Positions 1,483-63,380 of a stretch of DNA of 64,000 bases are shown here, piece by piece; the stretch's first letter is position 1; the number at the start of each line of letters is the position of its first letter. The notes beneath the pieces are model-generated. The model had not been told where the DNA came from. It saw only the letters and a program-made list of their open reading frames with translations, and ran no database searches. The stretch covers positions 8,638-72,637 of the forward strand of contig JAQTYI010000004.1 of assembly GCA_028688325.1 (NCBI GenBank). The letters are read 5' to 3'. A program made the translations under genes and the position numbers. The stretch is from Candidatus Portnoybacteria bacterium. Lineage in GTDB: Bacteria > Patescibacteriota > Minisyncoccia > Portnoybacterales > GWB1-42-6.

Positions 1483-1485
1483 GTT

Positions 1486-1620
1486 GTCATTCCGAGCCCC
1501 GCATCCAAAATCATAGATTTTTGGTGCGGGATAAACTCCGCGAGGAATCTCGCGGGAGCGTAGCGATCCGCGCAACAGATCTGGCATCCGCCAGAGATCC
1601 TTCGCTTCGCTCAGGATGAC
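1486..1620. repeat. GTCAT-family MITE-like element (TIR gtcattccgagc / gctcaggatgac)
   Basis: Near-identical copies at 14726, 16672, 25493; terminal inverted repeats seen directly. Confidence 0.7.
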
Positions 1621-1675
1621 AAATGGAGTGATTTTAATTGGTAAACTGTTTGTATGCTATAATAAAATTACCTTT

Positions 1676-3310: not shown

Positions 3311-3448
3311 AAAATCACCTCCTTGTGGTTTACAAAATTTTTTATGAAAAGAACGATTCTTTAAATCCGCATCTAAGCCCTGTATAAAAAATACGGGGCT
3401 GGAATTCGGGTTTAAATATAAATTACAAGGTCAAGTATAAACACAATT

Positions 3449-3531
3449 GTCATCCCGGGCTTGACCCGGGATCCAGGCCCCTGGATTCCCGCTTTCAGTT
3501 TACCCCGCACTTGATGCGGGGCGGGAATGAC
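3449..3531. repeat. GTCAT-family element, CCCGGG-hairpin variant (reverse orientation of the 58541 copy)
   Basis: gtcatcccgggcttgacccggg...gcgggaatgac; its reverse complement matches 58541-58629. Confidence 0.65.
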
Positions 3532-3650
3532 AGTTGAAAGTATTTATACTTCTATTAACACAGGCAGAACCACCCCGTAAAATTTCGCTGCGCGAAATCA
3601 CGGGGCGAGACGCGGTATTATAATGCTGGCAGGCGCGTCCGTGTTAGTTT

Positions 3651-11589: not shown

Positions 11590-11722
11590 ATCAACATCCG
11601 ATGTCCCAAATATTTAGCATTTTGTATTCTGGACATCAGATGTCAAAATATTGGACTTAATCCAGCGATGTCCGACAACCTAAAATTCGAAATTCTTTAA
11701 TATTTGAGTTGTCGGACATCAA
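11590..11722. promoter_or_regulatory. Array of four GATGTC-N-GACATC / GACATC-N-GATGTC palindromic sites in the uvrA leader
   Basis: acatccgatgt, gacatcagatgtc, gatgtccgacaac, gttgtcggacatc. The last two form a 13-bp perfect inverted repeat ending 8 nt before the uvrA ATG. Confidence 0.5.
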
Positions 11723-11727
11723 AATAC

Positions 11728-16188: not shown

Positions 16189-16253
16189 CTATAATGAATA
16201 CGAATTGGCAGTCCCGATTAACGACTGCTAAAAAGAAGCTTATTATTTATGGT

Positions 16254-16313
16254 GTCATTCTGAGGGCGCAGCCCGAGAATCTGTTAAAGATCCTTCGCTT
16301 CGCTCAGGATGAC
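16254..16313. repeat. GTCAT-family element (short) in the groES 5' leader
   Basis: gtcattctgagggcgcagcccgagaatct...gatccttcgcttcgctcaggatgac. Confidence 0.65.
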
Positions 16314-16325
16314 GAAAAGTCTGTT

Positions 16326-16625
16326 ATGAAAATAAAACCATTGGGCGACAGGGTTTTGATCGAACCGGTTTCCGCCGAAGAGATAAAAAAAATAGGCAAG
16401 ATAAATCTGATGGTGCCGCAGACCGCGGATAAGGAACGGCCCGAACAGGGCAAAGTTGTTGCTGTGGGCGCGGGCAGAATCGGTAAAGACGGAAAAAATA
16501 TTCCGATGAGCGTCAAAAAAGGCGATACGGTTTTGTTCACCAAATACGGCCCGAACGAAATAAAAATAGACGGCAAGGAATATCTGATTGCGGAGGAGAA
16601 AGATATATTAGCTATTTTAGAATAG
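16326..16625 (+). CDS. groES: Co-chaperonin GroES
   Basis: [15 protein letters not shown]...; start reset to the conserved N-terminus. Confidence 0.9.
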
Positions 16626-19437: not shown

Positions 19438-19698
19438 ATGTTTTATGTCTATGTGTTAAAAAGTGAAAAAGACGGGAACTGTTATACCGGTTTTAGCATT
19501 GACTTAAAGAAAAGAGTAGAAGAACATAATAAGGGGAGAGTAGAAATAACAAAAAATCGCAGGCCCTTGTTGTTGGTTTATTATGAAGCATTTTTGGACG
19601 AGAAGGCTGCGAGGCGGCAAGAATTATTTTATAAGACCGGTCAAGGAAGAAGAATTTTAAAAAAGAGATTAAGCTTTATACACGGAGAGGTCGCATAG
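19438..19698 (+). CDS. Small GIY-YIG nuclease-family protein (copy 1)
   Basis: FYVYVLKSEKDGNCYTGFSIDLKKRVEEHN GIY-YIG motif; 3' end overlaps the tRNA-Ser 5' end. Confidence 0.65.
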   Translation: MFYVYVLKSEKDGNCYTGFSIDLKKRVEEHNKGRVEITKNRRPLLLVYYEAFLDEKAARRQELFYKTGQGRRILKKRLSFIHGEVA

Positions 19699-19768
19699 AG
19701 GCCGAGTGCGCTCGCTTGGAAAGCGAGTGGTCCGCAAGGACTCGAGGGTTCGAATCCCTCCCTCTCCG
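19684..19768 (+). tRNA. tRNA-Ser (anticodon GGA), type II with long variable arm
   Basis: Manual fold: acceptor GGAGAGG/CCTCTCC, 3-bp D-stem, anticodon loop TTGGAAA, T-loop TTCGAAT. Confidence 0.7.
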
Positions 19769-20240: not shown

Positions 20241-21413
20241 ATGAATGGAAGTCAAAAACATCTAAATCATATAGACGCCATTAATCTTGGGTCATATTAT
20301 ACCCCAGGTATTATTGTTGATTTGGCTTATTCTATTTTGCAAAAAAATATCAAAGATATTAAAGATTTTTCAATATTAGATTCTTCTTGTGGTTACGGTT
20401 CTTTTTTGATAAGAAACAACATTGTGAAAAGATTGATTGGAGCCGATATCGATCAAAAAGCCATTTCTGAAGCAAAAAAAATAATTAGCGGAGTTGATTT
20501 TATCTGTCAAAATTCTCTTTTGAATGTTAGTCGTTCAAGTTTAATGATTAAGAATGATGAAAAAATTATAACCATAGGAAATCCTCCATATAACGATACA
20601 ACATCTATAATTCGTAATTCCATTAAAGATACTTCCATTCAGGATAAAATCGATGCCGACATAAAAACTAGGGATTTAGGCATGTCATTTTTATTGTCTT
20701 ACGACAAACTAAAAGCGGATTATGTTTGTGTTTTGCATCCTTTATCATATTTAATCAAAAAAGCCAATTTTGCCCTGCTTTCAAAATTCGCTAAAAATTA
20801 TAAATTAATTGACGGAATAATCATAAGCAGTCACGAATTTTCTGATACTTCTCGCGGAATGGCTTTTCCGATCTTGATCGCCCTTTATGAGAGGGATGAA
20901 AAAGGAATGGACTATAATTATATTCAAAATTATCAGTTCAAGGTGAAGGACGATGGTATTTTCCGTCTAAAGGATTTTGATACTATAGTCAACTATGTTC
21001 AAAAATATCCAAATAAAAAATTTTTAAATAAAAATGACAAGCCAGTAGCAAGGTTTTGGACTTTGAGAGATATAAATGCACTTAAACGAAACAGGACTTT
21101 TATTGATGAAGATACTTATAATACCGTTTATGTGTTAATGGAAAAATTGCCCTATTATTGCTACATCGATATTTTCAAACAATATACAGATAGAATGCCT
21201 TATTTCATTGGCAATTGTGATGTGATAATTGATAATGAAAAATTCGGAAAAATAAAGGAGTGCTTTATTGCCCAAAGCGTTCACACAAATCCGGTATTAA
21301 GAAATAAGTTTAGGTTTAGAGAAATTCCGGATGCAAAATTTAAAATAGATAACTATTTTAAAGAGTTGTTAGAAAATAAATTTGGAAAAAAACATGCCGC
21401 AAATTTTAATTAA
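20241..21413 (+). CDS. N6-adenine DNA methyltransferase, gamma class (YTP...FxGxG...NPPY), with C-terminal target-recognition region
   Basis: LGSYYTPGIIVDL; ILDSSCGYGSFL (motif I); GNPPY (motif IV); very AT-rich. Confidence 0.7.
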   Translation: MNGSQKHLNHIDAINLGSYYTPGIIVDLAYSILQKNIKDIKDFSILDSSCGYGSFLIRNNIVKRLIGADIDQKAISEAKKIISGVDFICQNSLLNVSRSSLMIKNDEKIITIGNPPYNDTTSIIRNSIKDTSIQDKIDADIKTRDLGMSFLLSYDKLKADYVCVLHPLSYLIKKANFALLSKFAKNYKLIDGIIISSHEFSDTSRGMAFPILIALYERDEKGMDYNYIQNYQFKVKDDGIFRLKDFDTIVNYVQKYPNKKFLNKNDKPVARFWTLRDINALKRNRTFIDEDTYNTVYVLMEKLPYYCYIDIFKQYTDRMPYFIGNCDVIIDNEKFGKIKECFIAQSVHTNPVLRNKFRFREIPDAKFKIDNYFKELLENKFGKKHAANFN

Positions 21414-22155
21414 AAAAGACGAACATAAAATAAAAATACCAATTTTATTAACTGCTGTTAGTGGAAAAATTCGCATTAAAAACCGATCAATTTTGAATGA
21501 ATACGGAACGCCAGTTGCAGTTAAAAGAGATGGTTTCTTATTAAGCAATTATGTCGAGTGGCAAATTGGCTACGATGTGGTTAAAAAGGAAACAGAAAAG
21601 CTCGCAGAGTCATCACTACCCGAAACTGAATTTATTGGGGCAAATGGAAAGGTCAAGGCGCTTTATGAATTGTCAGAGTATATCTGGTATTTTTATAAAT
21701 GGAACATTATCACCAGAGAAGAATTAGAGAGCGTTATCGCTTATCTTGATTCGATACAAGACCAGAATTTAATTGATAATAATTCCGAGTTGCAAATTGA
21801 CCGCAGTCATCCAATTGAGAAAAATATAAATGGATTTGATTTTGAATATACTCAAGTTAAATACCCTCTATTGATTTACAAATTTAATGGATACGAAATT
21901 ATTACCGAAATAAAAATTACCGAAAAGCAATATGCGGTTGGCACACAGCCAATGTTGTATTTATGTTTTCCAATCACAGAGTTAAAATCAGAAGTTAATT
22001 TAATTGGACGATGCGCCGAAATAAAAGAAATTGCCTATTTTGAAATTTCGGAAAGTAATATTAAAGTATTTTTGGAAATGCTAAAAATGTTTGGCATTTT
22101 ATCTAAAAACCACAAACACGATATTCTACAGATTATTAATACGATTTTAGAATAA
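21382..22155 (+). CDS. Hypothetical protein overlapping the methyltransferase by 32 nt; candidate restriction endonuclease or partner
   Basis: Operon overlap; AT-rich; possible D...EIK nuclease-like motif (weak). Confidence 0.4.
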   Translation: MEKNMPQILIKKDEHKIKIPILLTAVSGKIRIKNRSILNEYGTPVAVKRDGFLLSNYVEWQIGYDVVKKETEKLAESSLPETEFIGANGKVKALYELSEYIWYFYKWNIITREELESVIAYLDSIQDQNLIDNNSELQIDRSHPIEKNINGFDFEYTQVKYPLLIYKFNGYEIITEIKITEKQYAVGTQPMLYLCFPITELKSEVNLIGRCAEIKEIAYFEISESNIKVFLEMLKMFGILSKNHKHDILQIINTILE

Positions 22156-25074: not shown

Positions 25075-25482
25075 ATGAAAAAACTCATTGTTCTGATAAT
25101 CATTGTTCTGGCCGGTGGCTGGGCTTTGCAAAATTACACCAGCTTCAGGGCGATGGACTACGCCAAAGATTATTGGCAGAAAGTTGACTGGTCAAAAATA
25201 AATGTTTTTTCCAGAGACAAGGCGGTTCCCGATGCCAGCAAACAGCTCAATATTTTTATCAAAGAAAGCAAATTTACTCCTAATTTCAGCGCTGCCGAAT
25301 CGGGCATAAAAGCAACCTGGTTCAACGAGGATGATGAAAAACATACCGTAACGGGCGACAGCTGGGGCAGCGGCGAAATCGCGCCGGGCAAGGCATATAG
25401 CAAAATATTCAATGAAGCGGGAACCTATAAATACCATTGTTCTATACACCCAAGCATGACGGGGGAAATTATAGTTAAATAA
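25075..25482 (+). CDS. Cupredoxin (type-1 blue copper protein, plastocyanin/azurin family) with signal peptide
   Basis: YKYHCSIHPSMTGEIIV C-terminal Cu-ligand motif. Confidence 0.7.
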   Translation: MKKLIVLIIIVLAGGWALQNYTSFRAMDYAKDYWQKVDWSKINVFSRDKAVPDASKQLNIFIKESKFTPNFSAAESGIKATWFNEDDEKHTVTGDSWGSGEIAPGKAYSKIFNEAGTYKYHCSIHPSMTGEIIVK

Positions 25483-25492
25483 AAAGATAATT

Positions 25493-25650
25493 GTCATTCC
25501 GAGCCCCGCATCCAAAATCATAGATTTTTGGTGCGGGATAAACTCCGCGAGGAATCTCGCGGGAGCGTAGCGACCCGCGCAACGGTCTCGCATACGCGAG
25601 AGATCCTTCACGGAGTTTATACTGAACGAAGTGAATGTGTTCAGGATGAC
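25493..25650. repeat. GTCAT-family element (full length); its right TIR contains the dnaG start codon
   Basis: Left end identical to 1486; right end ...gtgttcaggATGACc. Confidence 0.7.
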
Positions 25651-27505
25651 CAAAGCATTGGACGGAGTGATTGATCAAATAAAACAAAAACTCGATATTT
25701 TAGAAGTGTTGGGGGAATATATCAAACTCACCAAGGCCGGCCGGAACCATAAGGCGAAGTGCCCCTTTCATGCCGAGCGCTCGGCTTCCTTTATGGTTTC
25801 GCCAGAGCGCCAGATTTGGCATTGTTTTGGGTGCGGCCTGGGCGGGGATATTTTCGGATTCGTGATGAAAATAGAGGGCGTGGAATTTGGCGACGCGCTG
25901 CGTCTTTTGGCGCGGCGAGCCGGCGTGACATTGAAAAAACAGGATCCGCAGGTCCAATCGCAAAAAAAGCGGCTATACGATATTTGCGAGCTGGCCGCCA
26001 AATTTTTTGAAACGCAATTGCATAAAACCGCAGCGGGTAAAAAAGCGTATGAATATCTTGCCGAACGGGGAATGAAGGCACAAACAATAAAGGACTGGCG
26101 GCTGGGTTGGGCACACGATGATTGGCGCGCGTTGGGAGATTTTTTGAAAAGCAGGGGATACAAGGAGGATGAGATAGAAACAGTCGGGTTGATAATCAAA
26201 AAAGATTATAACTCCCCCCAACCCCCCATTAATTTAAGAGGGGGTGAGCGGAGCGGGGGGGCGTTAGGCCATTATTATGATAGATTCAGGAGTAGAATAA
26301 TTTTTCCGATTGCAGACAGCCAGGGCCAGGTGATAGCGTTCGGCGGCAGGATATTCGGCGAGGCGGCCAAAAAAGAAGATGTGGCCAAATATCTCAATTC
26401 GCCCCAGACCCCGCTTTATGATAAAAGCAGCGTTCTTTACGGATTGAACAAGGCCAAAAACGATATCCGCGTCAAAGACCAATGTGTTATAGTCGAAGGG
26501 TATATGGATTTGATAATGTCGCACCAGGCCGGCATTGCCAACGCGGTGGCGTCTTCCGGCACGGCCTTGACCGAAAACCATCTGGCAATTATTGGTCGCT
26601 ATGCTAAAACCCTGGCTATGGCGTTCGATTCGGACGAGGCCGGCGGTATGGCCACGCGCCGCAGCATCGATCTGGCGCTGAGGCGGGATTTCAATGTCAA
26701 AGTCATATTGATGGATGAAAAAGATCCGGCCGATATCGTCAAAAAGGATCCGGCGGAATGGCCGAAATTGATAGAAAACGCCCAGAGCATAATGGATTTT
26801 TATTTCACTTACGCTTTTGCCAAGCGCGACGCCAAATCGGTTGAAGGCAAGCGCGAGATAAGAAAAATCTTATTGACAGCCATAAAATCCATCGCCAGCA
26901 AGACCGAGCAGGGCGAATGGATAAACGAATTGGCGCGCCGTTTGCGCGCGGACGAGCGGGACCTTTTGGCCGATATGAAGAAAATAAAATTGGAAACGCC
27001 GGAGGATTATGGCGGCGCGCCAAACAGCGAACCCGCGCAGATTATCGCCAAATCCCGGCTTGAGGGGCTCGAAGAAAGATTTCTGGGGTTGTGTCTGAGC
27101 CATCCGAAACATTTTTCCGAGATCACCGCTGACGAAAGCGACTTTCATAATGACGATTTGGCGCAAATTTTTAAAGGGTTAAAGAAGCTGTCGGGTAAAA
27201 AAGAAGGCAATGAGCTGCTGGTGTCGCTCCGTAAAGAATTAAAGCCGGAATTGCAGATAAAGATCGACTACCTCATATTCCAGATTGAGCAGCACGAGAG
27301 GGACGAAAAAGACATCATCGCGGAAATCGCTTCTTGCATCCTGGAACTTAAGCTTTTGCGGTTAAGGAATAAATTGACGGCCTTGAGCTTTGACATCAAA
27401 GACGCCCAGCAAGGCAAAGATAAAAATAAACTGGGAAAACTTTTAAAACAATTCGATCAGACATCTTCCGATTTAAACAGCATAACAAACACAGATGCCA
27501 GGTAG
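25646..27505 (+). CDS. dnaG: DNA primase DnaG with an in-frame poly-C element insertion
   Basis: CPFHAERSASFMVSPERQIWHCFGCGLGGD zinc-binding; TOPRIM EGYMDLI...DSDEAG. Confidence 0.85.
   Translation: MTKALDGVIDQIKQKLDILEVLGEYIKLTKAGRNHKAKCPFHAERSASFMVSPERQIWHCFGCGLGGDIFGFVMKIEGVEFGDALRLLARRAGVTLKKQDPQVQSQKKRLYDICELAAKFFETQLHKTAAGKKAYEYLAERGMKAQTIKDWRLGWAHDDWRALGDFLKSRGYKEDEIETVGLIIKKDYNSPQPPINLRGGERSGGALGHYYDRFRSRIIFPIADSQGQVIAFGGRIFGEAAKKEDVAKYLNSPQTPLYDKSSVLYGLNKAKNDIRVKDQCVIVEGYMDLIMSHQAGIANAVASSGTALTENHLAIIGRYAKTLAMAFDSDEAGGMATRRSIDLALRRDFNVKVILMDEKDPADIVKKDPAEWPKLIENAQSIMDFYFTYAFAKRDAKSVEGKREIRKILLTAIKSIASKTEQGEWINELARRLRADERDLLADMKKIKLETPEDYGGAPNSEPAQIIAKSRLEGLEERFLGLCLSHPKHFSEITADESDFHNDDLAQIFKGLKKLSGKKEGNELLVSLRKELKPELQIKIDYLIFQIEQHERDEKDIIAEIASCILELKLLRLRNKLTALSFDIKDAQQGKDKNKLGKLLKQFDQTSSDLNSITNTDAR
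26212..26261. repeat. Poly-C/poly-G hairpin element, in frame in dnaG (encodes SPQPPINLRGGERSGGAL)
   Basis: ctccccccaaccccccattaatttaagagggggtgagcggagcggggggg. Confidence 0.7.
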
Positions 27506-38184: not shown

Positions 38185-38982
38185 ATGGATTTTTCATATG
38201 CAATCATTTTGGGCGTCGTTGAGGGAATAACGGAGTTTTTGCCGATCTCTTCAACAGGGCACCTGATGCTGACGGCGCGTCTTTTGGATCTGGGCCAAAG
38301 CGAATTCTTGAAAAGTTTTGAGATCATCATCCAGCTGGGCGCGATCTTATCGGTGGTAGCTTTATACTGGCGGGAGCTTTTGGTCAAATGGGAGACAATG
38401 AAGCGCGTAGTCGTTGCTTTTGTTCCAACGGGGATTATCGGCTTGGTGCTGTATAAAATCGTTAAAGCTTATTTGCTGGGCAGTGAAACGGTGGTTTTGT
38501 GGAGTATGTTTTTGGGCGGATTATTTTTATTAGCGTTTGAATATTGGTACGGAAAAAAATCCCCCCTAACCCCCCTTTTACAAAGTGGGGAAAATAATAA
38601 ATTGGAAAATATCTCCTACGGCCAGGCCGCGGCGCTGGGTTTGTTTCAATCAATTGCGATAATTCCCGGCGTTTCGCGCTCGGCCGCCACAATTCTGGGG
38701 GGCTTATTCATGGGAATTTCTCGCAAAACAATCGTTGAATTTTCTTTTTTGCTGGCTGTGCCGACAATGCTGGCGGCCACCCTCCTCGATCTTTTTAAAA
38801 GCGCCGGTCAGTTTTCTTTGTCTCAGTGGGATTTTTTGGCTGTAGGTTTTTTTGTTTCTTTCGTTACGGCTTTGACTTCCATCAAGTTTCTGCTCAATTT
38901 TATCAAGAAGCATTCCTTTATCGCCTTTGGCGCTTATCGCATGGCGATTGCCTTGATTTTTTGGTTTTTTATTGTAAGATGA
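38185..38982 (+). CDS. uppP: Undecaprenyl-diphosphatase UppP/BacA with in-frame poly-C half-element
   Basis: VVEGITEFLPISSTGHLML. Confidence 0.85.
   Translation: MDFSYAIILGVVEGITEFLPISSTGHLMLTARLLDLGQSEFLKSFEIIIQLGAILSVVALYWRELLVKWETMKRVVVAFVPTGIIGLVLYKIVKAYLLGSETVVLWSMFLGGLFLLAFEYWYGKKSPLTPLLQSGENNKLENISYGQAAALGLFQSIAIIPGVSRSAATILGGLFMGISRKTIVEFSFLLAVPTMLAATLLDLFKSAGQFSLSQWDFLAVGFFVSFVTALTSIKFLLNFIKKHSFIAFGAYRMAIALIFWFFIVR
38560..38590. repeat. Poly-C element (left half plus degenerate right), in frame in uppP (encodes SPLTPLLQSGEN)
   Basis: tcccccctaaccccccttttacaaagtgggg. Confidence 0.55.
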
Positions 38983-55307: not shown

Positions 55308-56411
55308 GTGAACCGATCACAACTAAACAAATTTATAACCTACCTGCAAAAAAGCGACTGGTCGGTATTTGGACCGGTTTTTACGACCGAGAAAGTCGAG
55401 GAGCTTTCACCGTTTTTGTCGGCACATATGCCTTCGGCTGTAAAAAAGACCGGCCAGATATTGATAAAGGGGATATCAAATCCCGACGAACTGAACCTGG
55501 ACGGGCAATTGCCTTTTTATTCCTTCAAACGGTTTTTTGTGCCGGAAAAAGAGGGGCTTTTTGATTACCAAAACAATAAATTAAGAGATAAAAAATCAGT
55601 TTACCCTGAGCGCAGTCAAAGGGCGCTGGTCGGCATGAATATTTTGGACATGAAAGCCGTGAATCTTTACGACCAGGTTTTTGAGAAAGACCCGTATTAC
55701 CAGGCCAGGCGGCGCAATATCCTCATCGTCGGCTATTCGTTGACGCCAGAAATAGAAAATAATATTTTTGAACACAAGTATGAAGAGGATATTCTGGAAC
55801 ATTTGCCTTTTGACATTTTTTTGGCAGATTATAACGCCCCCTCGTCCCGCGAACTGCGGAACTCGCCCCCTCTTAAATTAAGAGGGGGGTCGGGGGGGTT
55901 ATATAAAGTTTTTACTGGAAGCATAAAAGGCCAACGGATTCTGGAGCACTTTGGCTATAAGGACTATGAGCACATCCAGTTCAGCGGACCGATCAAGGAG
56001 GGGGAGGCGGACAAAAGGATGGAGCGCTTGCGCGACCGGTTAAAAAATCACCATAATTTAAAAATCTGGGAGGAATTGGGCCAGCGCTGCATCGAATGCG
56101 GCAAGTGCACCCTGGCCTGCCCAACCTGCTTTTGCTTTCGCATAGACGATGCTCCCGCGATCAAAGAAAACTTGGGCGAGCGTTCGCGCTGCTGGGATTC
56201 CTGCTATTATCAGGAATTTTCGGAAGTCGTCGGCGGGCATAAATTTCTGGACAACACCGCCAAACGCATCCATTTTTGGTATTTCCATAAATTCGCCAGG
56301 ATTCCCGATGAATTTAATTTCATGGGCTGCGTGGGCTGCCATCGCTGCGCCGCGGTCTGCCCGGTGGGAATAGATATAAATAAAGTGTTGGAGGACATAG
56401 AAAATTCTTAG
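55308..56411 (+). CDS. hydB: Sulfhydrogenase beta-like subunit (HydB/AsrA-like) with two 4Fe-4S motifs and an in-frame poly-C element
   Basis: CIECGKCTLACPTCFC and CVGCHRCAAVCP; ~367 aa like archaeal HydB. Confidence 0.55.
   Translation: MNRSQLNKFITYLQKSDWSVFGPVFTTEKVEELSPFLSAHMPSAVKKTGQILIKGISNPDELNLDGQLPFYSFKRFFVPEKEGLFDYQNNKLRDKKSVYPERSQRALVGMNILDMKAVNLYDQVFEKDPYYQARRRNILIVGYSLTPEIENNIFEHKYEEDILEHLPFDIFLADYNAPSSRELRNSPPLKLRGGSGGLYKVFTGSIKGQRILEHFGYKDYEHIQFSGPIKEGEADKRMERLRDRLKNHHNLKIWEELGQRCIECGKCTLACPTCFCFRIDDAPAIKENLGERSRCWDSCYYQEFSEVVGGHKFLDNTAKRIHFWYFHKFARIPDEFNFMGCVGCHRCAAVCPVGIDINKVLEDIENS
55862..55900. repeat. Poly-C/poly-G hairpin element, in frame in hydB (encodes SPPLKLRGGSGGL)
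   Basis: ctcgccccctcttaaattaagaggggggtcgggggggtt. Confidence 0.65.
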
Positions 56412-56415
56412 AATC

Positions 56416-57246
56416 ATGCATAATCCCTACCAGCCGGAACCGGCAAAAATAGTTTCTATCAGCCGCCAGACAAGCAGCGTCAAGCTGTTCCGTTTTGAAT
56501 TCGCGCAAAATATCCCCGGCTGGAAATTTTCGTATCAACCCGGCCAATTCGTAGAATTATCCTTGCCCGGCTTTGGCGAAGCGCCTTTTGCGCCCTGCGG
56601 CGGCATTAAAGAGAAATATATAGAGCTTTGCGTCCGAAATGTCGGTAAGTTGACCGCCCGGCTTCACGCCATGAAGGTGGGAGATAGGGTTGCCGTTCGC
56701 GGACCCTACGGCAACGGCGCTTGGCCGGCCGGCAAATATGATTTTAAGGTGCAAAAAAATCTTTTTATCGCGGTTGGCGGGCTGGGCTTGGCGCCGTTGC
56801 GCTCGCTCCTACTTGGCAAAAACTATTTTTTGGGTAAAGATACAAAGGTGCAGATATTCTACGGCGCCAGAAATCCGCAGGAAATGCTTTTCCGCCACGA
56901 ATATGAAAATTGGAAAAAACTTAAAATAAAAATGGAGCTGACAATAGACAAAGAGCATGCCGGCTGGAAGGGCCATACCGGGCTGGTCACAACCCTATTT
57001 GATAAATGCGATGTTTTGCAGAATTCAGTGGCGTTTTTAGTCGGCCCGCCTGTGATGTATAAGCCGGTATTGGAAAGATTGAAAAAACTCGGATTTGCGG
57101 ATGAAGATATTTATTTGTCGCTGGAAAGGAGAATGCATTGCGCCGTCGGCGCTTGCCAGCATTGCGCGGTCGGGTCATATTACACCTGCAAAGACGGGCC
57201 GGTTTTTTCTTGGGCGCAAATAAAGAATATTCCCGACGCCATATAA
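56416..57246 (+). CDS. hydG: Sulfhydrogenase gamma-like subunit (FAD/NAD-binding, C-terminal 2Fe-2S; HydG/AsrB/PyrK-like)
   Basis: Ferredoxin-reductase fold; C-terminal CAVGACQHCAVGSYYTCKDGPVF. Confidence 0.6.
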   Translation: MHNPYQPEPAKIVSISRQTSSVKLFRFEFAQNIPGWKFSYQPGQFVELSLPGFGEAPFAPCGGIKEKYIELCVRNVGKLTARLHAMKVGDRVAVRGPYGNGAWPAGKYDFKVQKNLFIAVGGLGLAPLRSLLLGKNYFLGKDTKVQIFYGARNPQEMLFRHEYENWKKLKIKMELTIDKEHAGWKGHTGLVTTLFDKCDVLQNSVAFLVGPPVMYKPVLERLKKLGFADEDIYLSLERRMHCAVGACQHCAVGSYYTCKDGPVFSWAQIKNIPDAI

Positions 57247-57490
57247 TCATTAAAAAATAATTATTAAAAATAACGGATGCGCCGATAACGAAACTATCCG
57301 TTCACAATCGGCGGCCCTTCGTAATTTACAGGAAATATGCGAAAATTCAAATTGATGCTGGGCGACGATCTTATGGATCTATTGCCGCCAATGCTAACCT
57401 CTCTTTTTCTTATCGGCGGAGTTATCTCGTTAATCATTAAGAATTTTTAGCGCTCATTCCTATGATTTTTGAATTTGAGCGCAGCGAATT

Positions 57491-57685
57491 ATGTGCCTGA
57501 CGATTCCCAAACAAGTCGTTTCCGCCGGAAATAATTCCGTCCGCATCCGGGCCGGCAAAAAAACCGAATCAGTCGGCACCATTTTGGCGGTCAAAAAAGG
57601 GGATTGGGTGCTCACGCAAAACAGCATCATCATCAAAAAGATCACCGCCAAGCAGGCAAAAGAGATAAATAATTTCCTTAAATAA
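57491..57685 (+). CDS. hypC: Hydrogenase maturation factor HypC
   Basis: MCLTIP N-terminus, ~64 aa. Confidence 0.72.
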   Translation: MCLTIPKQVVSAGNNSVRIRAGKKTESVGTILAVKKGDWVLTQNSIIIKKITAKQAKEINNFLK

Positions 57686-57692
57686 AATTACT

Positions 57693-58628
57693 ATGCAAAA
57701 CAAAGGATTATTATTGGTTTTTTCCACCGCCATCATTTCCGGCGTTTCGGTTTTCATCAATAAATTCGGCGTGGGAATGAATAACCCGGATATTTTCACT
57801 TTCGCCAAAAATACGGCGGTAGCTGTTTTGTTTACGGCTGTTATCTTCTTTTTAAAAGACAGGAAGGCCTTATTTCAATTAAACAAAAACCAGTGGTTGC
57901 AATTGCTGGCGCTGGGTTTGATCGGCGGCTCGATTCCGTTCCTGCTTTTTTTCAAGGGCTTGGCCTTAACAAGCGCGGCTCAGGGCGCTTTTATCCATAA
58001 GACAATGTTCATTTTTGTGGTAATTCTGGCGGCCTTCATCTTAAAAGAGAAGATCAACAAAAATTTTATTATCGGCGGCTTGCTTTTGCTTCTCGGCAAT
58101 CTAATATTGCTTAAGGGCCTTCATTTTTCGTTCGGCTTGGGCGACGCGCTGGTTCTTGTCGCGGTCTTGTTCTGGGCGATGGAAAATGTCTTGGCTAAAT
58201 ATGTCCTGCGAGAAATGCCGGGCAATATCGCGGCCTGGGGGCGGATGTTTTTCGGCTCGATATTCATCCTGGCTTATTTATCCTTTACGGGACAGGCATC
58301 GCAAGTTTTGAATCTCAACTCGGCGCAAATCGGATGGATTGCCATAACTTCCGCCTTGCTTTTCGGCTACACGATAACCTGGTATAACGGATTAAAGACC
58401 GTTTCCGTTTCGATCGCCACCACGATCTTGCTCTTTGGCCTACCCATAACAACGGCGCTGTCGGCGATCTATGCTGGAAAAATAACCCCGCAAGACGCCT
58501 GGTCTATGATATTATTACTACTTGGCGTATTTATTATTGTGTCATTCCCGCCCCGCATCAAGCGCGGGGTAAACTGGAAGCGGGAATCCAGGATCCTGGA
58601 TTCCCCCGCAACTGCGGGGCGGAAATAA
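57693..58628 (+). CDS. EamA/DMT-family transporter; last ~28 codons encoded by a GTCAT-family element
   Basis: 10 TM helices; C-terminus VSFPPRIKRGVNWKRESRILDSPATAGRK is repeat-derived. Confidence 0.65.
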   Translation: MQNKGLLLVFSTAIISGVSVFINKFGVGMNNPDIFTFAKNTAVAVLFTAVIFFLKDRKALFQLNKNQWLQLLALGLIGGSIPFLLFFKGLALTSAAQGAFIHKTMFIFVVILAAFILKEKINKNFIIGGLLLLLGNLILLKGLHFSFGLGDALVLVAVLFWAMENVLAKYVLREMPGNIAAWGRMFFGSIFILAYLSFTGQASQVLNLNSAQIGWIAITSALLFGYTITWYNGLKTVSVSIATTILLFGLPITTALSAIYAGKITPQDAWSMILLLLGVFIIVSFPPRIKRGVNWKRESRILDSPATAGRK

Positions 58629-58629
58629 C
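58541..58629. repeat. GTCAT-family element (CCCGC-hairpin variant) forming the 3' end of the EamA gene
   Basis: Reverse-orientation match to 3449-3531. Confidence 0.65.
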
Positions 58630-58635
58630 AAAAAA

Positions 58636-59376
58636 ATGGCTTCGGGACCAAAAATAGCGGCCTTATACGGCCTGATTCCCAACCGTCTCGGTTTTTGCGG
58701 GCCGCAGCAGGAACTGCTTAAAAAATTCATCGTCGGCAAGTTGTCCATTCCGGAAATAATCCCGACATTGGAAAAGTTCGAAGCCGCCTACGAATATTAC
58801 CAGCTTATCGCGCGTAAAAATAAAATGCCAAGTCCCTTCAATAAAAAAGTGATTGAGGCCTACTGGCTGGGGAACAATCTTTTGGATAAAATTACCGCCA
58901 ATGACCTGCGGGCGCTAATAATGGAAAGATTTTGCAAACCAGGTCTTTTATCGAAAAAAGAAGCAAAAAAGCGGGCCGATATGATACCTGCTGATTCAAA
59001 ACCGCACCATAGTTTCCATGTATTGGTTCTGGGTTCAATAACGGGCAGCGTGGATTTTACCGGCAACACCAAACTAAAAGACACTTGCCGCGTGGGTTGG
59101 GGAAGGGCAATCAAACTAAAAACTAAAAACGAAAAACTAAAAACAGAAACCATTGTTGTCAAATACGACCCGTTGATTGGCAAAAATAATATAAAGTTTG
59201 GGCGACCAATTGAAAAAGAGCTCACTTGGGACAGAGAAATATTGCCATCGGTAGAAATCGGGGACCGGGTCTCATTCCACTGGAACCACGCAATGCAAAA
59301 GCTGAATGAAGAAAATATCATAAATTTGCACAAATATACGCAAAATACATTAGACACGCTTTATGCCAAAAACTAA
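58636..59376 (+). CDS. Hypothetical protein inside the hydrogenase cluster with in-frame CTAAAAAC-type repeat (KLKTKNEKLKTE)
   Basis: No recognised domain; repeat at 59113-59150. Confidence 0.4.
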   Translation: MASGPKIAALYGLIPNRLGFCGPQQELLKKFIVGKLSIPEIIPTLEKFEAAYEYYQLIARKNKMPSPFNKKVIEAYWLGNNLLDKITANDLRALIMERFCKPGLLSKKEAKKRADMIPADSKPHHSFHVLVLGSITGSVDFTGNTKLKDTCRVGWGRAIKLKTKNEKLKTETIVVKYDPLIGKNNIKFGRPIEKELTWDREILPSVEIGDRVSFHWNHAMQKLNEENIINLHKYTQNTLDTLYAKN

Positions 59377-60130
59377 ACCCACTATTGCCATAACTTCTTT
59401 AACCTGCTGCGAGGGTTGCCAGGTGGCCATTTTGGATCTGGGCGCCCGCTTCCTGGAGGTTGCCGAGCATGTTAAAGTTGGCGATTTTGCGCTGCTGGAA
59501 GACGCGCCGGACGCGCCAAATTACGATATTGTTTTTGTTGAAGGCGCGCCGATAACTGAAGAGAATATAGAGTGGCTGAAAAGATTGCGAGAGAAATCAA
59601 AAGTTCTGATAGCGCTTGGCGCCTGCGCGGCGCTGGGCGGCATCGCGGAAATAAAAAACTACCAGGATAAATTCGAGCGCATGCGCTATGTGTATAAGAA
59701 TTTTGAAGGCATCAATAATCCCGATATTAAGCCCATAAGCTATTATGTTAAAGTTGATTTTGAAATACCGGGCTGCCCCATAAATAAGGAAGAATTTCTG
59801 GCGGTTGTTAAACAGGTGCTGGCCGGGGTTCCGCCAAAAATTGCGCTCCGGCCGGTGTGTTATGAATGCCAGATGAAACAGAACAAGTGCCTTCTGCAGG
59901 AAGGCGAGCCATGCCTTGGTCCGTTAATGCTGGGAGGTTGCGGCGCGACATGTCCTTCAAGCGCTTACCCTTGCGACGGCTGCCGCGGGCCGATTCCCGG
60001 CGCCAATCCCGATAAACTAGAAAAACAATTATTGGCGCAGAATTACAGCCAGGAAGAAGTGGACCTGATATTGCAAAGATTCGGACTGGTGGATAGAGTG
60101 TATCCGGAGACACCGGCATCAACTAATTAA
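59363..60130 (+). CDS. hydD: [NiFe] hydrogenase small subunit (group 3b delta-like)
   Basis: Cys clusters typical of a small subunit (TCCEGCQ..., GCP, Cys-rich C-terminus). Confidence 0.72.
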   Translation: MPKTKPTIAITSLTCCEGCQVAILDLGARFLEVAEHVKVGDFALLEDAPDAPNYDIVFVEGAPITEENIEWLKRLREKSKVLIALGACAALGGIAEIKNYQDKFERMRYVYKNFEGINNPDIKPISYYVKVDFEIPGCPINKEEFLAVVKQVLAGVPPKIALRPVCYECQMKQNKCLLQEGEPCLGPLMLGGCGATCPSSAYPCDGCRGPIPGANPDKLEKQLLAQNYSQEEVDLILQRFGLVDRVYPETPASTN

Positions 60131-60239
60131 AATTAAAATTGCAAGTCAAAATTTAAAGGTCTTAATTCACTTCCCCGAAGCGGGAATACCGAACTTTTGA
60201 CTTTTGCATTTTGAGTTTTGACTTTGAGCGAAGCGAAAT

Positions 60240-61562
60240 ATGCATATTAAAATTGACCATGTTGCCAAAATAGAAGGTCATGCCAGTTTTACCGCCGATA
60301 TCGTGGACGGCAATGTCCAGAAAGCGCGATTTGATGTTATGGAAGGCGCGCGCTTGCTGGAAGGAATTTTGTGTTCCCGCAGCATTTTTGAGGTTTCGCA
60401 AATTTCCGCCCGGATTTGCGGCGTCTGCCCGGTGGTGCACACATTAACCAGTATCAAAGCGCTGGAAAAGGCGTTGGATATAGAAATTTCGGAGCAAACA
60501 TTATTGCTGCGCAAACTTATGATGATGGGCCAGATCTTGAACAGCCACGCTTTGCATCTTTTCTTTTTTTCACTATCCGATTTTTTCGGCCTTGACAGCG
60601 ATCTGACGCTCATTAAAAAATATCCCGCCCGAGCCAACGATGCCTTGGCATTGCGGGAATTTGGCAATAACCTTATTGAAGTTATCGGCGGCCGCTCCAT
60701 CCACCCGCTAACGCCGACCATCGGCGGATTCCTGAAGGTTCCCGATAGGGCAAAATTGGGAAAACTGTTTGACCAATGCGATAATGCGCTGGAATCGGCA
60801 AAAAATCTGGCTAAATTATTTTCCGAGCTGAAATATCCCGATTTTATCCGCTCGGCGCCCTACGCCAGTTTGACCCATCCCAATGAATACGCTTTTTGCG
60901 AGGGCTTGGTCAAAACGCCCGTGGAAGAAAAAGCGGGCATAGATGAGTTTATGAATATCCTGAAAGAACACCAGCTGCAAAACAGCGCGGTCAAGGCATC
61001 ATATTACCAAGGCAAGCCCTTTATGGTTGGAGCTGCTTCCCGACTCAATAATAATTCCGGCCAGTTGAATCCGGAGGCAAAAAAAGCGTTGAATAAAACG
61101 AAAATAATTTTGCCCTCGTTCAATCCGTTCCACAATATTTTAGCGCAAGCCGTAGAAATGGTTCATTGCGTTGAAGAAGCGCAAAAACTGCTGCGCCAGA
61201 TCTTGCAAAAAGAATTAAAGAACGAAGATCGCTCTGAGCGAGATAAGCTCATCCAGACAAAATTGCAAGCCATCAAAGGCGCGGTCAAGGGCTATGGAGC
61301 CATTGAAGCGCCCCGCGGCACGCTTTATTATTTTTACGAGATAGACCGCAATGGCAAGGTGGTTAATTGCAACATTATCACGCCGACTTCCCAGAATCTG
61401 GCGCGCCTGGAAAAAGACCTGGAAGAATATCTGCCTAAACTTGCCGGTCAAGCGCCGCGCAATAAAAAAGACGCCAAAACGCCCATCCAAAAAGCCGTGG
61501 AAGACAAGATAAAAATGCTCATCAGAGCGTATGACCCGTGCTTAACTTGCGCCACTCATTAG
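60240..61562 (+). CDS. hydA: [NiFe] hydrogenase large subunit (group 3b alpha-like), ending exactly at the second Ni-binding motif
   Basis: RICGVCPVVH (L1) and DPCLTCATH-stop (L2). Confidence 0.85.
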   Translation: MHIKIDHVAKIEGHASFTADIVDGNVQKARFDVMEGARLLEGILCSRSIFEVSQISARICGVCPVVHTLTSIKALEKALDIEISEQTLLLRKLMMMGQILNSHALHLFFFSLSDFFGLDSDLTLIKKYPARANDALALREFGNNLIEVIGGRSIHPLTPTIGGFLKVPDRAKLGKLFDQCDNALESAKNLAKLFSELKYPDFIRSAPYASLTHPNEYAFCEGLVKTPVEEKAGIDEFMNILKEHQLQNSAVKASYYQGKPFMVGAASRLNNNSGQLNPEAKKALNKTKIILPSFNPFHNILAQAVEMVHCVEEAQKLLRQILQKELKNEDRSERDKLIQTKLQAIKGAVKGYGAIEAPRGTLYYFYEIDRNGKVVNCNIITPTSQNLARLEKDLEEYLPKLAGQAPRNKKDAKTPIQKAVEDKIKMLIRAYDPCLTCATH

Positions 61563-63232: not shown

Positions 63233-63274
63233 ATTAGCTACGAATACGGATTTTTTACGAATATACGGATATTT

Positions 63275-63380
63275 TTCCCCTCTTTCGTAAAGAGGGGTTA
63301 GGGGAGATTTAAAAGCGCTTTATTTATCAAATAAAGCATTCTTAAATCCCTCCCAACCTCCCTTTAAAAAGGGAGGGGTA
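63275..63380. repeat. Two poly-C/poly-G hairpin elements in a nested palindromic intergenic complex
   Basis: ccctctttcgtaaagaggggttagggg and tccctcccaacctccctttaaaaagggaggggta, flanked by atacggat/atccgtat. Confidence 0.6.

What the first reader, a model, noticed from the sequence alone, without database searches (positions are those of the whole stretch)
58541..58629. Repeat element supplies the C-terminus and stop codon of an EamA transporter inside the hydrogenase cluster
The last ~28 codons of the EamA/DMT gene (VSFPPRIKRGVNWKRESRILDSPATAGRK-stop) are encoded entirely by a GTCAT-family element. That element is the reverse-orientation twin of the intergenic copy at 3449-3531. The insertion therefore replaced or extended the native C-terminus.
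Basis: seen in the sequence. Interest (0 to 1): 0.55.

Follow-up and report, generated by a model that had tools for sequence, protein, structure and literature searches.

The report
Palindromic repeat forms transporter's C-terminus
A small palindromic repeat element, common in this candidate-phyla-radiation bacterium, sits at the 3' end of a membrane-transporter gene, where it replaces the protein's natural tail and supplies the stop codon; this kind of event is already known from Rickettsia and other bacteria.

Summary
Window 58541-58629 is an 89-nt palindromic element with imperfect 16-nt terminal inverted repeats (14/16). Its left 65 nt are 92% identical to the reverse-oriented intergenic copy at 3468-3532. 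The right 25 nt are a different hairpin module.

It encodes residues 284-311 and the TAA stop of a 311-aa EamA/DMT transporter. That gene lies between hypC and DUF6390/NiFe-hydrogenase genes in a Candidatus Portnoybacteria genome.

Across 120 orthologs, homology ends at the last transmembrane helix (about residue 283). In 112 of them a native basic tail of 11-22 aa follows. That tail is missing here, and DUF6390 starts 7 nt after the stop, so no displaced 3' end exists. The tail was replaced, not merely extended.

This is not a one-off. Related elements encode the EamA C-terminus and stop in at least five other ortholog lineages (DNA checked in L003, L086, L087, L088, L013). Others lie in frame inside uvrA in this window and inside DUF6390 in other genomes.

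The family is REP/REPIN- or MITE-like. No target-site duplication was seen and no transposase is in the window.

Verdict: a real, well-supported but ordinary case. It is a new member of a known kind, comparable to Rickettsia palindromic elements. Interest is moderate to low.

The parts
57693..58628 (+). EamA/DMT transporter ORF, 311 aa (10 predicted TM helices; residues 1-283 native, 284-311 element-encoded)
   Evidence: ORF list. Pfam EamA x2. 100% match to an NCBI 'DMT family transporter [Candidatus Portnoybacteria]'. AF2 model has mean pLDDT 87.7, last helix at 266-284, and tail pLDDT about 50.
58541..58629 (+). GTCAT-family palindromic mosaic element (89 nt; 91 nt if the flanking T and A of TGTCAT..AACA are counted)
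   Evidence: Folds at -48.5 kcal/mol, z=-5.7.
58541..58556 (+). Left terminal inverted repeat, GTCATTCCCGCCCCGC
   Evidence: Read directly from the sequence. Matches the reverse complement of 58614-58629 at 14 of 16 positions.
58614..58629 (+). Right terminal inverted repeat, GCGGGGCGGAAATAAC. It is a degenerate form of the canonical ..GGAATGAC(A) and contains the stop codon.
   Evidence: Canonical ends ..GGAATGACAA are seen in L003, L087, L088 and L086.
58626..58628 (+). TAA stop codon of EamA, inside the right terminal repeat. It occupies the position of the TGA of canonical ATGAC.
58540..58604 (+). The part shared with the reverse-oriented intergenic copy (92% over 65 nt). It comprises the REP-like stem ATTCCCGC(58544-58551)/GCGGGAAT(58580-58587), which encloses the hairpin CCCCGC..GCGGGG and the motif TAAACTG, followed by the palindrome ATCCAGGATCCTGGAT (58586-58601).
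   Evidence: (I1). The same module occurs in unrelated metagenome contigs L082-L085.
58604..58619 (+). Right-hand hairpin module CCCCGCAACTGCGGGG. It is absent from the twin copy but present in the junction elements of orthologs L088, L003 and L087.
3447..3533 (-). Intergenic 'twin' element (TTGTCAT..ATGACAG), lying between the convergent phosphoglucomutase and RNase J genes. The frame equivalent to the EamA tail has an in-frame TGA where the EamA copy has TGG.
   Evidence: A near-identical full copy is at L084.
58630..58635 (+). A6 spacer between the element and the downstream start codon. It may be a remnant of the native Lys-rich tail or coupling region.
   Evidence: Compare AAAAAATATG in the native junctions of L005 and L089. 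This reading is inference only.
58636..59376 (+). DUF6390 gene, the conserved downstream partner of EamA. Its start is intact, 7 nt after the EamA stop.
   Evidence: Pfam DUF6390 E=8.4e-36. Conserved synteny and conserved N-terminus.

Best explanation
A non-autonomous palindromic mosaic repeat lies at the junction between the EamA transporter gene and the DUF6390 gene of a group-3-type NiFe-hydrogenase operon in a Candidatus Portnoybacteria genome. It is REP/REPIN- or MITE-like, with termini TGTCAT..ATGACA and hairpin modules built on ATTCCCGC..GCGGGAAT.

In relatives without an element the two genes abut or overlap. There the EamA tail often ends ..YVR[TAS]* because its stop overlaps the ATG of DUF6390. 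No intergenic space is available, so any insertion lands in coding DNA.

Here the element follows codon 283, directly after the last transmembrane helix, and the native tail of about 18 aa is gone. Ribosomes read through the element in the frame TCA-TTC-CCG (S-F-P). That frame is open because the G+C-rich hairpins hold few stop triplets. Translation ends at the stop triplet built into the right terminal repeat (canonical GAA-TGA-C, here AAA-TAA-C), 7 nt before the DUF6390 start.

The result is a 28-aa tail that is basic (+6) and probably disordered, presumably cytoplasmic, in place of a native 11-22-aa basic tail. The insertion is most likely a tolerated, near-neutral event at a permissive site rather than an adaptation.

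Shown: the element, its copies elsewhere, the reading frame and stop, the loss of the native tail, and the same kind of event in other orthologs and genes. Inferred: neutrality, the cytoplasmic location of the tail, and how the element moves. How many independent insertions occurred at this junction is left open.
For: Element and twin. Family over-representation, 13 termini against 0.6 expected. About 13 elements in 64 kb.

Copies of the same left module occur in four unrelated metagenome contigs, one of them a full near-identical copy of the 3447-3533 type.

Homology to 120 orthologs stops at residues 283-285. Native tails are 11-22 aa with charge +1 to +6; the window tail is 28 aa with charge +6.

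Native junctions with stop/start overlap (L005, L089..AAAAAATATGTCCGGNCCTAA) or a short spacer (L004).

Element-encoded C-termini that end at the terminal TGA in L003, L087 and L088 (same position), L086 (7 codons later) and L013 (a different subfamily, after 18 native residues).

The element has one stop in the frame used, at its very end. The intergenic twin has a TGA where the coding copy has TGG.

The AF2 model has a confident 10-helix core (pLDDT 87.7) and a tail at pLDDT about 50.

In-frame insertions at permissive loops elsewhere: four in UvrA, each coinciding with a gap relative to the solved UvrA 2r6f, and in DUF6390 of L003, L087 and L011.

Assembly artefact is unlikely. The longest exact match between the two window copies is 23 nt. 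The same protein and neighbours appear on a Logan contig. Both flanks are syntenic in dozens of genomes.
Against: No strain-level 'empty site' was found; the closest orthologs are only 70-77% identical. The original tail and the exact insertion/deletion history are therefore reconstructed, not observed.

No target-site duplication is visible. No transposase or RAYT domain occurs among the 46 largest ORFs of the window. Mobility is thus inferred only from dispersed copies.

Four orthologs carry the element at the same codon position. That fits either one old insertion plus recombination, or site preference or selection. The NJ tree places them apart, but the EamA and DUF6390 trees disagree, so this is unresolved.

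There is no expression or proteomic evidence that the tail is made.
Confidence: 0.85

Rival explanations
1. The element is kept at this junction because it does something useful. It could act as a portable stop/start cassette (the ATGA of ATGACA gives a TGA stop for EamA and an ATG for DUF6390). It could also be an mRNA hairpin that tunes the relative expression or stability of the operon's segments, as REP/BIME elements do in E. coli.
For: GTCAT-type elements occupy the same EamA/DUF6390 junction in at least five other ortholog lineages. In L086, L087 and L088 the gene callers start DUF6390 at the ATG of the terminal ATGACA, giving a 4-nt ATGA overlap. In L087 that ATG appears to be the real start (MTTKNSG.. 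against MTIKNSG.. in L003). The structure is very stable. REPs within 15 nt of a stop codon are reported to affect translation in E. coli (PMC12306157, citing its ref. 17).
Against: Only 8 of 120 orthologs (7%) have an element here. That is no more than the share of gene junctions occupied in this window: about 10 of some 57 junctions. In the window copy the ATG is mutated to ATA and is out of frame with the real start (own count). No hairpin remains downstream of the stop, and no terminator-like site was found. The internal modules differ between loci. Elements also sit inside uvrA and DUF6390, where no such role applies.
Confidence: 0.1
2. The tail is ancestral coding sequence of this EamA lineage, and the similarity to the intergenic copy is secondary. 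For example, the intergenic copy could derive from the gene end, or the similarity could be convergent low-complexity sequence.
For: A few orthologs (P0011, P0012, P0024, P0039, P0045) have partly similar tails. The residues S-F at 284-285 are common in native orthologs.
Against: 112 of 120 orthologs have unrelated tails. The similar tails are element copies at the DNA level, with full terminal repeats. The same module is found in unrelated, non-EamA contexts in this window and in four metagenome contigs. The DNA has terminal inverted repeats and nested hairpins with z=-5.7, which a coding tail has no reason to possess.
Confidence: 0.02
3. The junction is a metagenome-assembly chimera created at a repeat, so the fusion of EamA to the element does not exist in any cell.
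For: The source is a MAG. The repeats are abundant and shared between co-occurring genomes. EamA and DUF6390 phylogenies are incongruent in some loci, which could partly reflect chimeric contigs such as the co-assembled L003.
Against: The EamA->DUF6390->hydrogenase order is conserved in dozens of independent assemblies. The identical protein and neighbours occur on an NCBI contig (78 kb) and a Logan contig. The longest exact match to the other window copy is 23 nt, shorter than usual assembly k-mers. The element is shorter than a typical read.
Confidence: 0.03

Closest known systems
Rickettsia palindromic elements (RPEs)
   Same: Both are short palindromic repeats in a small, reduced genome. 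Both are inserted in frame into unrelated housekeeping genes at sites the protein tolerates, so the repeat is translated as part of the host protein (review PMC10969869). Here this applies to the EamA tail, four sites in UvrA, and a loop of DUF6390 in relatives.
   Different: The phylum is different (Patescibacteria) and the elements are built differently: shorter (60-160 nt) and mosaic, assembled from interchangeable hairpin modules. In the EamA case the element ends the protein (C-terminal replacement plus stop) instead of forming an internal insert. Sequence similarity to RPEs was not tested.
REP / REPIN elements (with RAYT transposase), including the Neisseria REP (dRS3) and mosaic arrays (BIME, NIME)
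   Same: The core hairpin ATTCCCGC-loop-GCGGGAAT is the same stem as the Neisseria REP master sequence ATTCCCGCGCAGGCGGGAATC given in 10.1101/2021.07.10.451892. A relative in L083 contains that exact 21-mer. Two such units in inverted orientation form the element ends, as in REPINs. The combination of modules is mosaic, and the elements sit mostly at gene ends.
   Different: [quoted passage not shown] Here several copies are translated. No RAYT gene was found in the window. The conserved flank is TTGTCAT. That this differs from the GTAG of classical REPs rests on my own knowledge, not on a tool result.
Bacterial MITEs (e.g. Correia, ERIC, BOX, Nezha) that fuse with host ORFs
   Same: Small size, terminal inverted repeats (14/16 here), many dispersed copies, no coding capacity of their own, and occasional in-frame fusion with genomic ORFs (PMC10969869).
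   Different: No target-site duplication was seen at six copies. No parent insertion sequence with matching ends was identified.

Membership tests
MITE (miniature inverted-repeat transposable element) | Terminal inverted repeats | tested here: met
   GTCATTCCCGCCCCGC against the reverse complement of GCGGGGCGGAAATAAC matches at 14/16. Other copies end TTGTCAT..ATGACAA.
MITE (miniature inverted-repeat transposable element) | Short (<~300 bp), non-coding, multiple dispersed copies | tested here: met
   The element is 89 nt. About 13 family members occur in 64 kb. Copies are also found in four unrelated metagenome contigs.
MITE (miniature inverted-repeat transposable element) | Target-site duplication flanking the element | tested here: not met
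   The flanks of the two window copies and of L082-L085 share no direct repeat. L003 shows a tandem ATGACAAYTAAAAA at its right edge, but this is a single case.
MITE (miniature inverted-repeat transposable element) | Cognate autonomous IS with the same ends | tested here: inconclusive
   No transposase Pfam domain in the 46 largest ORFs of the window. The rest of the genome was not available.
REP / REPIN-RAYT system | Short imperfect palindrome (REP), with two REPs in inverted orientation forming a hairpin (REPIN) | tested here: met
   The stem ATTCCCGC/GCGGGAAT and the inverted terminal modules are present, and the whole element folds as one hairpin. The stem is identical to the Neisseria REP.
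REP / REPIN-RAYT system | Almost exclusively extragenic location | tested here: not met
   The EamA tail copy and at least three copies inside uvrA are translated. The same holds for DUF6390 in L003, L087 and L011.
REP / REPIN-RAYT system | Single-copy RAYT (HUH-Y1 transposase) gene flanked by REPs in the same genome | not testable with these tools
   Only 64 kb of the genome is in hand. No Y1_Tnp hit was found in it.
Rickettsia palindromic elements | Palindromic repeat inserted in frame in protein-coding genes and translated | tested here: met
   Translation is inferred from intact reading frames, not from protein data.
Rickettsia palindromic elements | Sequence membership in one of the RPE families of Rickettsia | not tested
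   No RPE sequences were compared. The phylum and the module structure are different, so this is treated as an analogue, not a member.
EamA/DMT transporter (the host gene) | Two EamA repeats forming 10 TM helices | tested here: met
   Pfam EamA in 2 stretches, E=1.8e-33. The AF2 model shows the helices, the last at 266-284. Family-invariant residues are retained.

The most novel reading that the evidence does not exclude
Patescibacteria may harbour a REPIN-like repeat system that shares its stem with the Neisseria REP. Unlike classical REPINs, it would routinely colonise coding DNA at permissive loops and gene ends. At tightly packed or overlapping gene junctions, such as EamA/DUF6390, its termini (ATGACA read as TGA plus ATG) would act as ready-made stop/start couplers. 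The shared repeat would also serve as a recombination hot spot that shuffles operon modules between lineages. That would explain the incongruent EamA and DUF6390 trees and the same element type sitting at the same codon in distantly related orthologs.
Probability: 0.12. Interest if true: 0.6.

Novelty: new member of a known kind. Interest (0 to 1): 0.35.

Why it matters
Taken alone this is a small annotation point: the last 28 residues of this transporter are repeat-derived and should not be used for homology or function inference.

More broadly, this ultra-small CPR genome tolerates translated palindromic repeats in housekeeping proteins (EamA, UvrA, and DUF6390 in relatives), as Rickettsia does. 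I found no description of such elements in Patescibacteria in the searchable literature.

This matters for gene calling and protein-family alignments of CPR and DPANN MAGs. It also bears on assembly quality at repeats, and on how repeats create protein length variation in reduced genomes.

Tried and rejected
(1) Rfam. No family reached gathering score in the window apart from three tRNAs. A permissive scan of 58400-58760 gave only chance-level hits, E>=0.1.

(2) Terminator or promoter role. No terminator-like site lies at the element. One weak minus-strand promoter-like match overlaps it, but the region's count is at shuffle level.

(3) Searching the protein database with the tail. A 41-aa query returned nothing, not even the source protein.

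(4) Displaced native 3' end. Nothing was found. Conceptual excision of the element gives ..IIVKKWLRDQK*, overlapping the DUF6390 start. This vaguely recalls native ..VKKYVRS* but is too short to count as evidence.

(5) Microhomology idea, that native V-S-F codons mimic the element end. Rejected: the nearest native relatives read ATT ATT GGT TTT GA. at that point.

(6) Small ORFs flanked by elements (25075-25482 and 16194-16625) as candidate RAYT/IS200 genes. They are a cupredoxin-like protein and GroES.

(7) Monophyly of the element-bearing orthologs. The NJ tree says no. But there is no bootstrap support and there is evidence of recombination, so I did not conclude that the insertions were independent.

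(8) Literature on such elements in CPR/Patescibacteria. Nothing relevant was found.

Full report
SOURCE AND SETTING. The EamA protein of the window is 100% identical to an NCBI entry named 'DMT family transporter [Candidatus Portnoybacteria bacterium]'. It is also encoded on a Logan contig from SRR22315507 with the same neighbours. The window is therefore from a Patescibacteria (CPR) MAG.

Around the finding, Pfam identifies the following genes:
- a Fer4_22 protein at 55308-56411;
- an FAD/NAD/Fe-S protein at 56416-57246;
- HypC at 57491-57685;
- EamA at 57693-58628;
- DUF6390 at 58636-59376;
- the NiFe-hydrogenase small subunit at 59363-60130 and large subunit at 60240-61562.

The 'inside the hydrogenase cluster' part of the title is correct.

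THE OBSERVATION. The 89 nt at 58541-58629 have 16-nt terminal inverted repeats, GTCATTCCCGCCCCGC and GCGGGGCGGAAATAAC, matching at 14/16. Between them lie nested hairpins:
- ATTCCCGC (58544-58551) pairs with GCGGGAAT (58580-58587) and encloses CCCCGC-ATCAAGC-GCGGGG;
- the palindrome ATCCAGGATCCTGGAT (58586-58601);
- CCCCGCAACTGCGGGG (58604-58619).

As RNA the element folds at -48.5 kcal/mol. The shuffle mean is -30.7, giving z=-5.7, and no shuffle out of 200 did as well.

The repeat finder pairs 58540-58604 with 3468-3532 at 92% complementarity over 65 nt (alignment). So the intergenic element at 3447-3533 is indeed a reverse-oriented relative. The right 25 nt differ, however. The intergenic copy ends CCCGGGTCAAGCCCGGGATGACA, while the EamA copy ends CCCCGCAACTGCGGGGCGGAAATAACA.

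The EamA reading frame enters the element at codon 283 (GTG). It reads SFPPRIKRGVNWKRESRILDSPATAGRK and stops at TAA 58626-58628, inside the right terminal repeat. All parts of the observation are confirmed. 'Twin' holds only for the left two-thirds.

THE FAMILY. The terminus motif TGTCATYCYS occurs 13 times in the window against 0.6 expected, and no shuffle out of 100 reached 13. Inspection gives about 13 elements of 30-160 nt in 64 kb. They are built from interchangeable hairpin modules:
- TTGTCAT-TCCGAG.., TTGTCAT-CCCGGGCTTGACCCGGG-ATCC and TTGTCAT-CCTGAGCGAAGCGAAGG-ATCT;
- a longer module containing ..ATAAACTC...

A scan of public metagenome contigs for the left module found four further copies in unrelated contexts. 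One of them (L084) is a near-identical full-length copy of the 3447-3533 type.

No direct repeat flanks these copies. No Rfam family matches. None of the 46 largest ORFs in the window has a transposase domain.

The stem ATTCCCGC..GCGGGAAT is the same as in the Neisseria REP master sequence ATTCCCGCGCAGGCGGGAATC, quoted in 10.1101/2021.07.10.451892. The relative in L083 contains that exact 21-mer. Whether this reflects shared ancestry or convergence cannot be said.

DID THE ELEMENT REPLACE THE NATIVE C-TERMINUS? A database search gave 1220 homologs, and the best 120 (53-100% identity) were aligned. Conservation is high up to G278 and through the hydrophobic helix ending at about residue 283. 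After that the window protein matches nothing native.

In 112 orthologs without a repeat-like tail, the tail after that helix is 11-22 aa (median 18) with net charge +1 to +6. The window tail is 28 aa with charge +6.

An AlphaFold2 model built on 30 orthologs has mean pLDDT 87.7 and its last helix at 266-284. The pLDDT is about 50 for residues 290-311. This fits an appended, unstructured tail.

At the DNA level the native architecture is a tight junction. In L005 and L089 the EamA stop overlaps the DUF6390 start (..AAA AAA TAT GTC CGG NCC TAA, with ATG TCC GGN CCT AAA.. read in the other frame). That overlap explains the frequent ..YVR[TAS] ending. In L004 a 22-nt spacer separates the two genes.

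In the window, DUF6390 starts at 58636, only 7 nt after the EamA stop. Its N-terminus MASGPKIAALYG matches relatives. There is therefore no room for a displaced 3' end. The native tail has been lost and replaced. The A6 run between element and ATG may be a remnant of the Lys codons of the old tail, but that is conjecture.

THE SAME THING IN OTHER ORTHOLOGS. Eight of the 120 orthologs have repeat-like tails. I fetched the DNA for five lineages.
- L003 (P0011), L088 (P0012) and L087 (P0039) carry a 66-nt element: TTGTCATTCnCGC-loop-GCGGGAATC / CCCCGCAnnTGCGGGG / CGCrTCAArCrCrGAATGACAA. It sits directly after the last helix (..I/V/L | L-S-F..), the same position as in the window.
- L086 (P0024) carries a 63-nt relative seven codons further on (..GFEKKIM|SFLRKQESRILDSASSAG*).
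- L013 (P0050) carries a GTCATCCTGAGCG-type element after 18 native tail residues (..SW|SHPER*).

The four ATGACA-ended elements (L003, L086, L087, L088) are read in the S-F frame and end at the TGA of the terminal ATGACA. L013, a different subfamily, is read as S-H-P-E-R and ends at a TAG near its left end.

In L086, L087 and L088 the gene callers start DUF6390 at the ATG of that same ATGACA, giving a 4-nt ATGA overlap. In L087 this ATG appears to be the true start (MTTKNSGLK.. against MTIKNSGLK.. in L003).

Alignment A3 shows the window element as the same backbone with two extra modules (24 and 13 nt) and an 11-nt deletion at the right end. There GGAATGAC has become GGAAATAAC: the stop is kept as TAA and the ATG is lost.

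It is not met, because every matching tail checked is itself an element.

ONE INSERTION OR MANY? A neighbour-joining tree of the conserved core places the element-bearing proteins in at least four separate places. The window protein is sister to a clade with native tails.

The tree is unsupported, however, and the two genes have incongruent histories. L003 and L087 share 83% identity in DUF6390 but only 60% in EamA. The window shares 77% in DUF6390 with L005 but only 58% in EamA.

Recombination near the junction, or chimeric co-assemblies at the repeat, could therefore spread one old insertion. I leave this open.

Junction occupancy among orthologs is 7%. That is not higher than the share of gene junctions occupied by elements in this window (roughly 10 of 57). 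No special targeting needs to be assumed.

WHY IT IS TOLERATED. In the window element, three of the six frames are fully open and two have a stop only at the very end. The coding frame is one of those two. The G+C-rich palindromes encode R/K/G/P/S-rich peptides, which resemble the native basic tail.

The intergenic twin has TGA where the coding copy (and L084 and L085) has TGG. It could not be read through in that frame.

The same tolerance is seen elsewhere. The 1003-aa UvrA ORF (11704-14715) contains GTCAT-type elements at 12463-12497, 13592-13661 and 13693-13721, and a CCCCCC/GGGGGG-type repeat at 13025-13067. All are in frame, and each coincides with a gap relative to the solved B. stearothermophilus UvrA 2r6f. 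DUF6390 of L003, L087 and L011 carries in-frame elements at one surface loop.

This is the pattern described for Rickettsia palindromic elements (PMC10969869).

ALTERNATIVES. A regulatory or coupling role is possible but not indicated:
- no hairpin remains downstream of the stop;
- no terminator-like site is present;
- the internal modules vary between loci;
- most orthologs lack the element.

An assembly chimera is unlikely, given the conserved synteny, the identical protein on an NCBI contig and on a Logan contig, and only 23 nt of exact identity with the other window copy. A native origin for the tail is contradicted by the ortholog alignment and by the dispersed copies.

VERDICT. Mechanistically it is an ordinary consequence of a dense population of palindromic repeats in a compact genome with overlapping genes. 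It is a new member of a known kind, in a phylum where I found no published description of such elements. Interest is 0.35. The broader pattern of translated repeats in CPR housekeeping proteins is more noteworthy than this single case.

Noticed in passing
window 11704-14715 (+); inserts at 12463-12497, 13025-13067, 13592-13661, 13693-13721: The UvrA gene carries four in-frame palindromic-repeat insertions: three of the GTCAT type and one of the CCCCCC/GGGGGG type. They encode [52 protein letters not shown] and [11 protein letters not shown]. Each falls in a gap relative to the solved UvrA structure 2r6f.
   Followed up: partly
L087:2910-3058, L003:3921-4070, L011:3890-3952; window 59113-59144: DUF6390 in three other genomes has GTCAT-type elements inserted in frame at the same loop, after GWGRV... 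They add up to about 49 residues. At that loop the window's DUF6390 has a Lys-rich low-complexity stretch made of CTAAAAA-like repeats. L004 and L086 have a PPL.LRGGE insert that looks like the CCCCCC/GGGGGG repeat family.
   Followed up: partly
L002-L081 (80 loci), window 55308-61562: The gene pair EamA -> DUF6390 is conserved inside NiFe-hydrogenase clusters (Fer4_22, FAD/NAD subunit, HypC, EamA, DUF6390, small and large subunit) in many CPR bacteria. It also occurs in MAGs labelled as DPANN archaea (Woesearchaeota, Nanoarchaeota, Iainarchaeum). A transporter and a DUF embedded in a hydrogenase operon across two domains is unexplained.
   Followed up: no
L003, L087, L005, L004, L086 versus window 57693-59376: EamA and DUF6390 have incongruent similarity patterns. 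For example, L003 against L087 is 60% in EamA but 83% in DUF6390. The window against L005 is 58% in EamA but 77% in DUF6390. This suggests recombination, or chimeric assembly, at or near the repeat-bearing junction.
   Followed up: partly
window 10575-10626, 10992-11044, 13025-13067, 26207-26248, 38555-38594, 55862-55903, 63273-63377: A second dispersed repeat family is built on CCCCCC-loop-GGGGGG hairpins (e.g. AAATCCCCCCTAACCCCCCTTTTACAAAGTGGGG). It occurs in both orientations, and one copy is translated inside uvrA.
   Followed up: no
window 20241-22155: A low-GC island (GC 0.32 against about 0.46 elsewhere) encodes an N6 DNA methylase-like protein and an R.Pab1-type restriction endonuclease. 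It is probably a horizontally acquired restriction-modification system and lies next to a tRNA at 19684-19768.
   Followed up: no
L083:3582-3606: The hairpin GTCATTCCCGCGCAGGCGGGAATCC on a metagenome contig contains the exact 21-mer reported as the most abundant REP sequence of Neisseria meningitidis (10.1101/2021.07.10.451892). The same stem is used by the window elements with longer loops.
   Followed up: partly
L010:3360-3420: In a Portnoybacteria genome (PEYL01000025) a different, perfect 18-bp inverted repeat (GGAAAGGTGTCAGGTACC..GGTACCTGACACCTTTCC) encodes the last residues and the stop of the EamA ortholog. An unrelated palindrome therefore produces the same effect.
   Followed up: no
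L003:3395-3440: To the right of the L003 junction element, the sequence ATGACAAYTAAAAA occurs twice in tandem: once as the element end plus flank, and once as the DUF6390 start. This could be a footprint of how the element joined the gene start, or a duplication.
   Followed up: no
window 1484-1622, 16254-16313, 25493-25650: Mechanical ORFs for YchF (409-1587, -), GroES (16194-16625, +) and DnaG (25631-27505, +) extend into GTCAT elements at their 5' ends. In YchF and GroES the Pfam domains begin about 45 residues in, so those true starts are probably downstream. The elements inflate N-termini in naive gene calls.
   Followed up: partly
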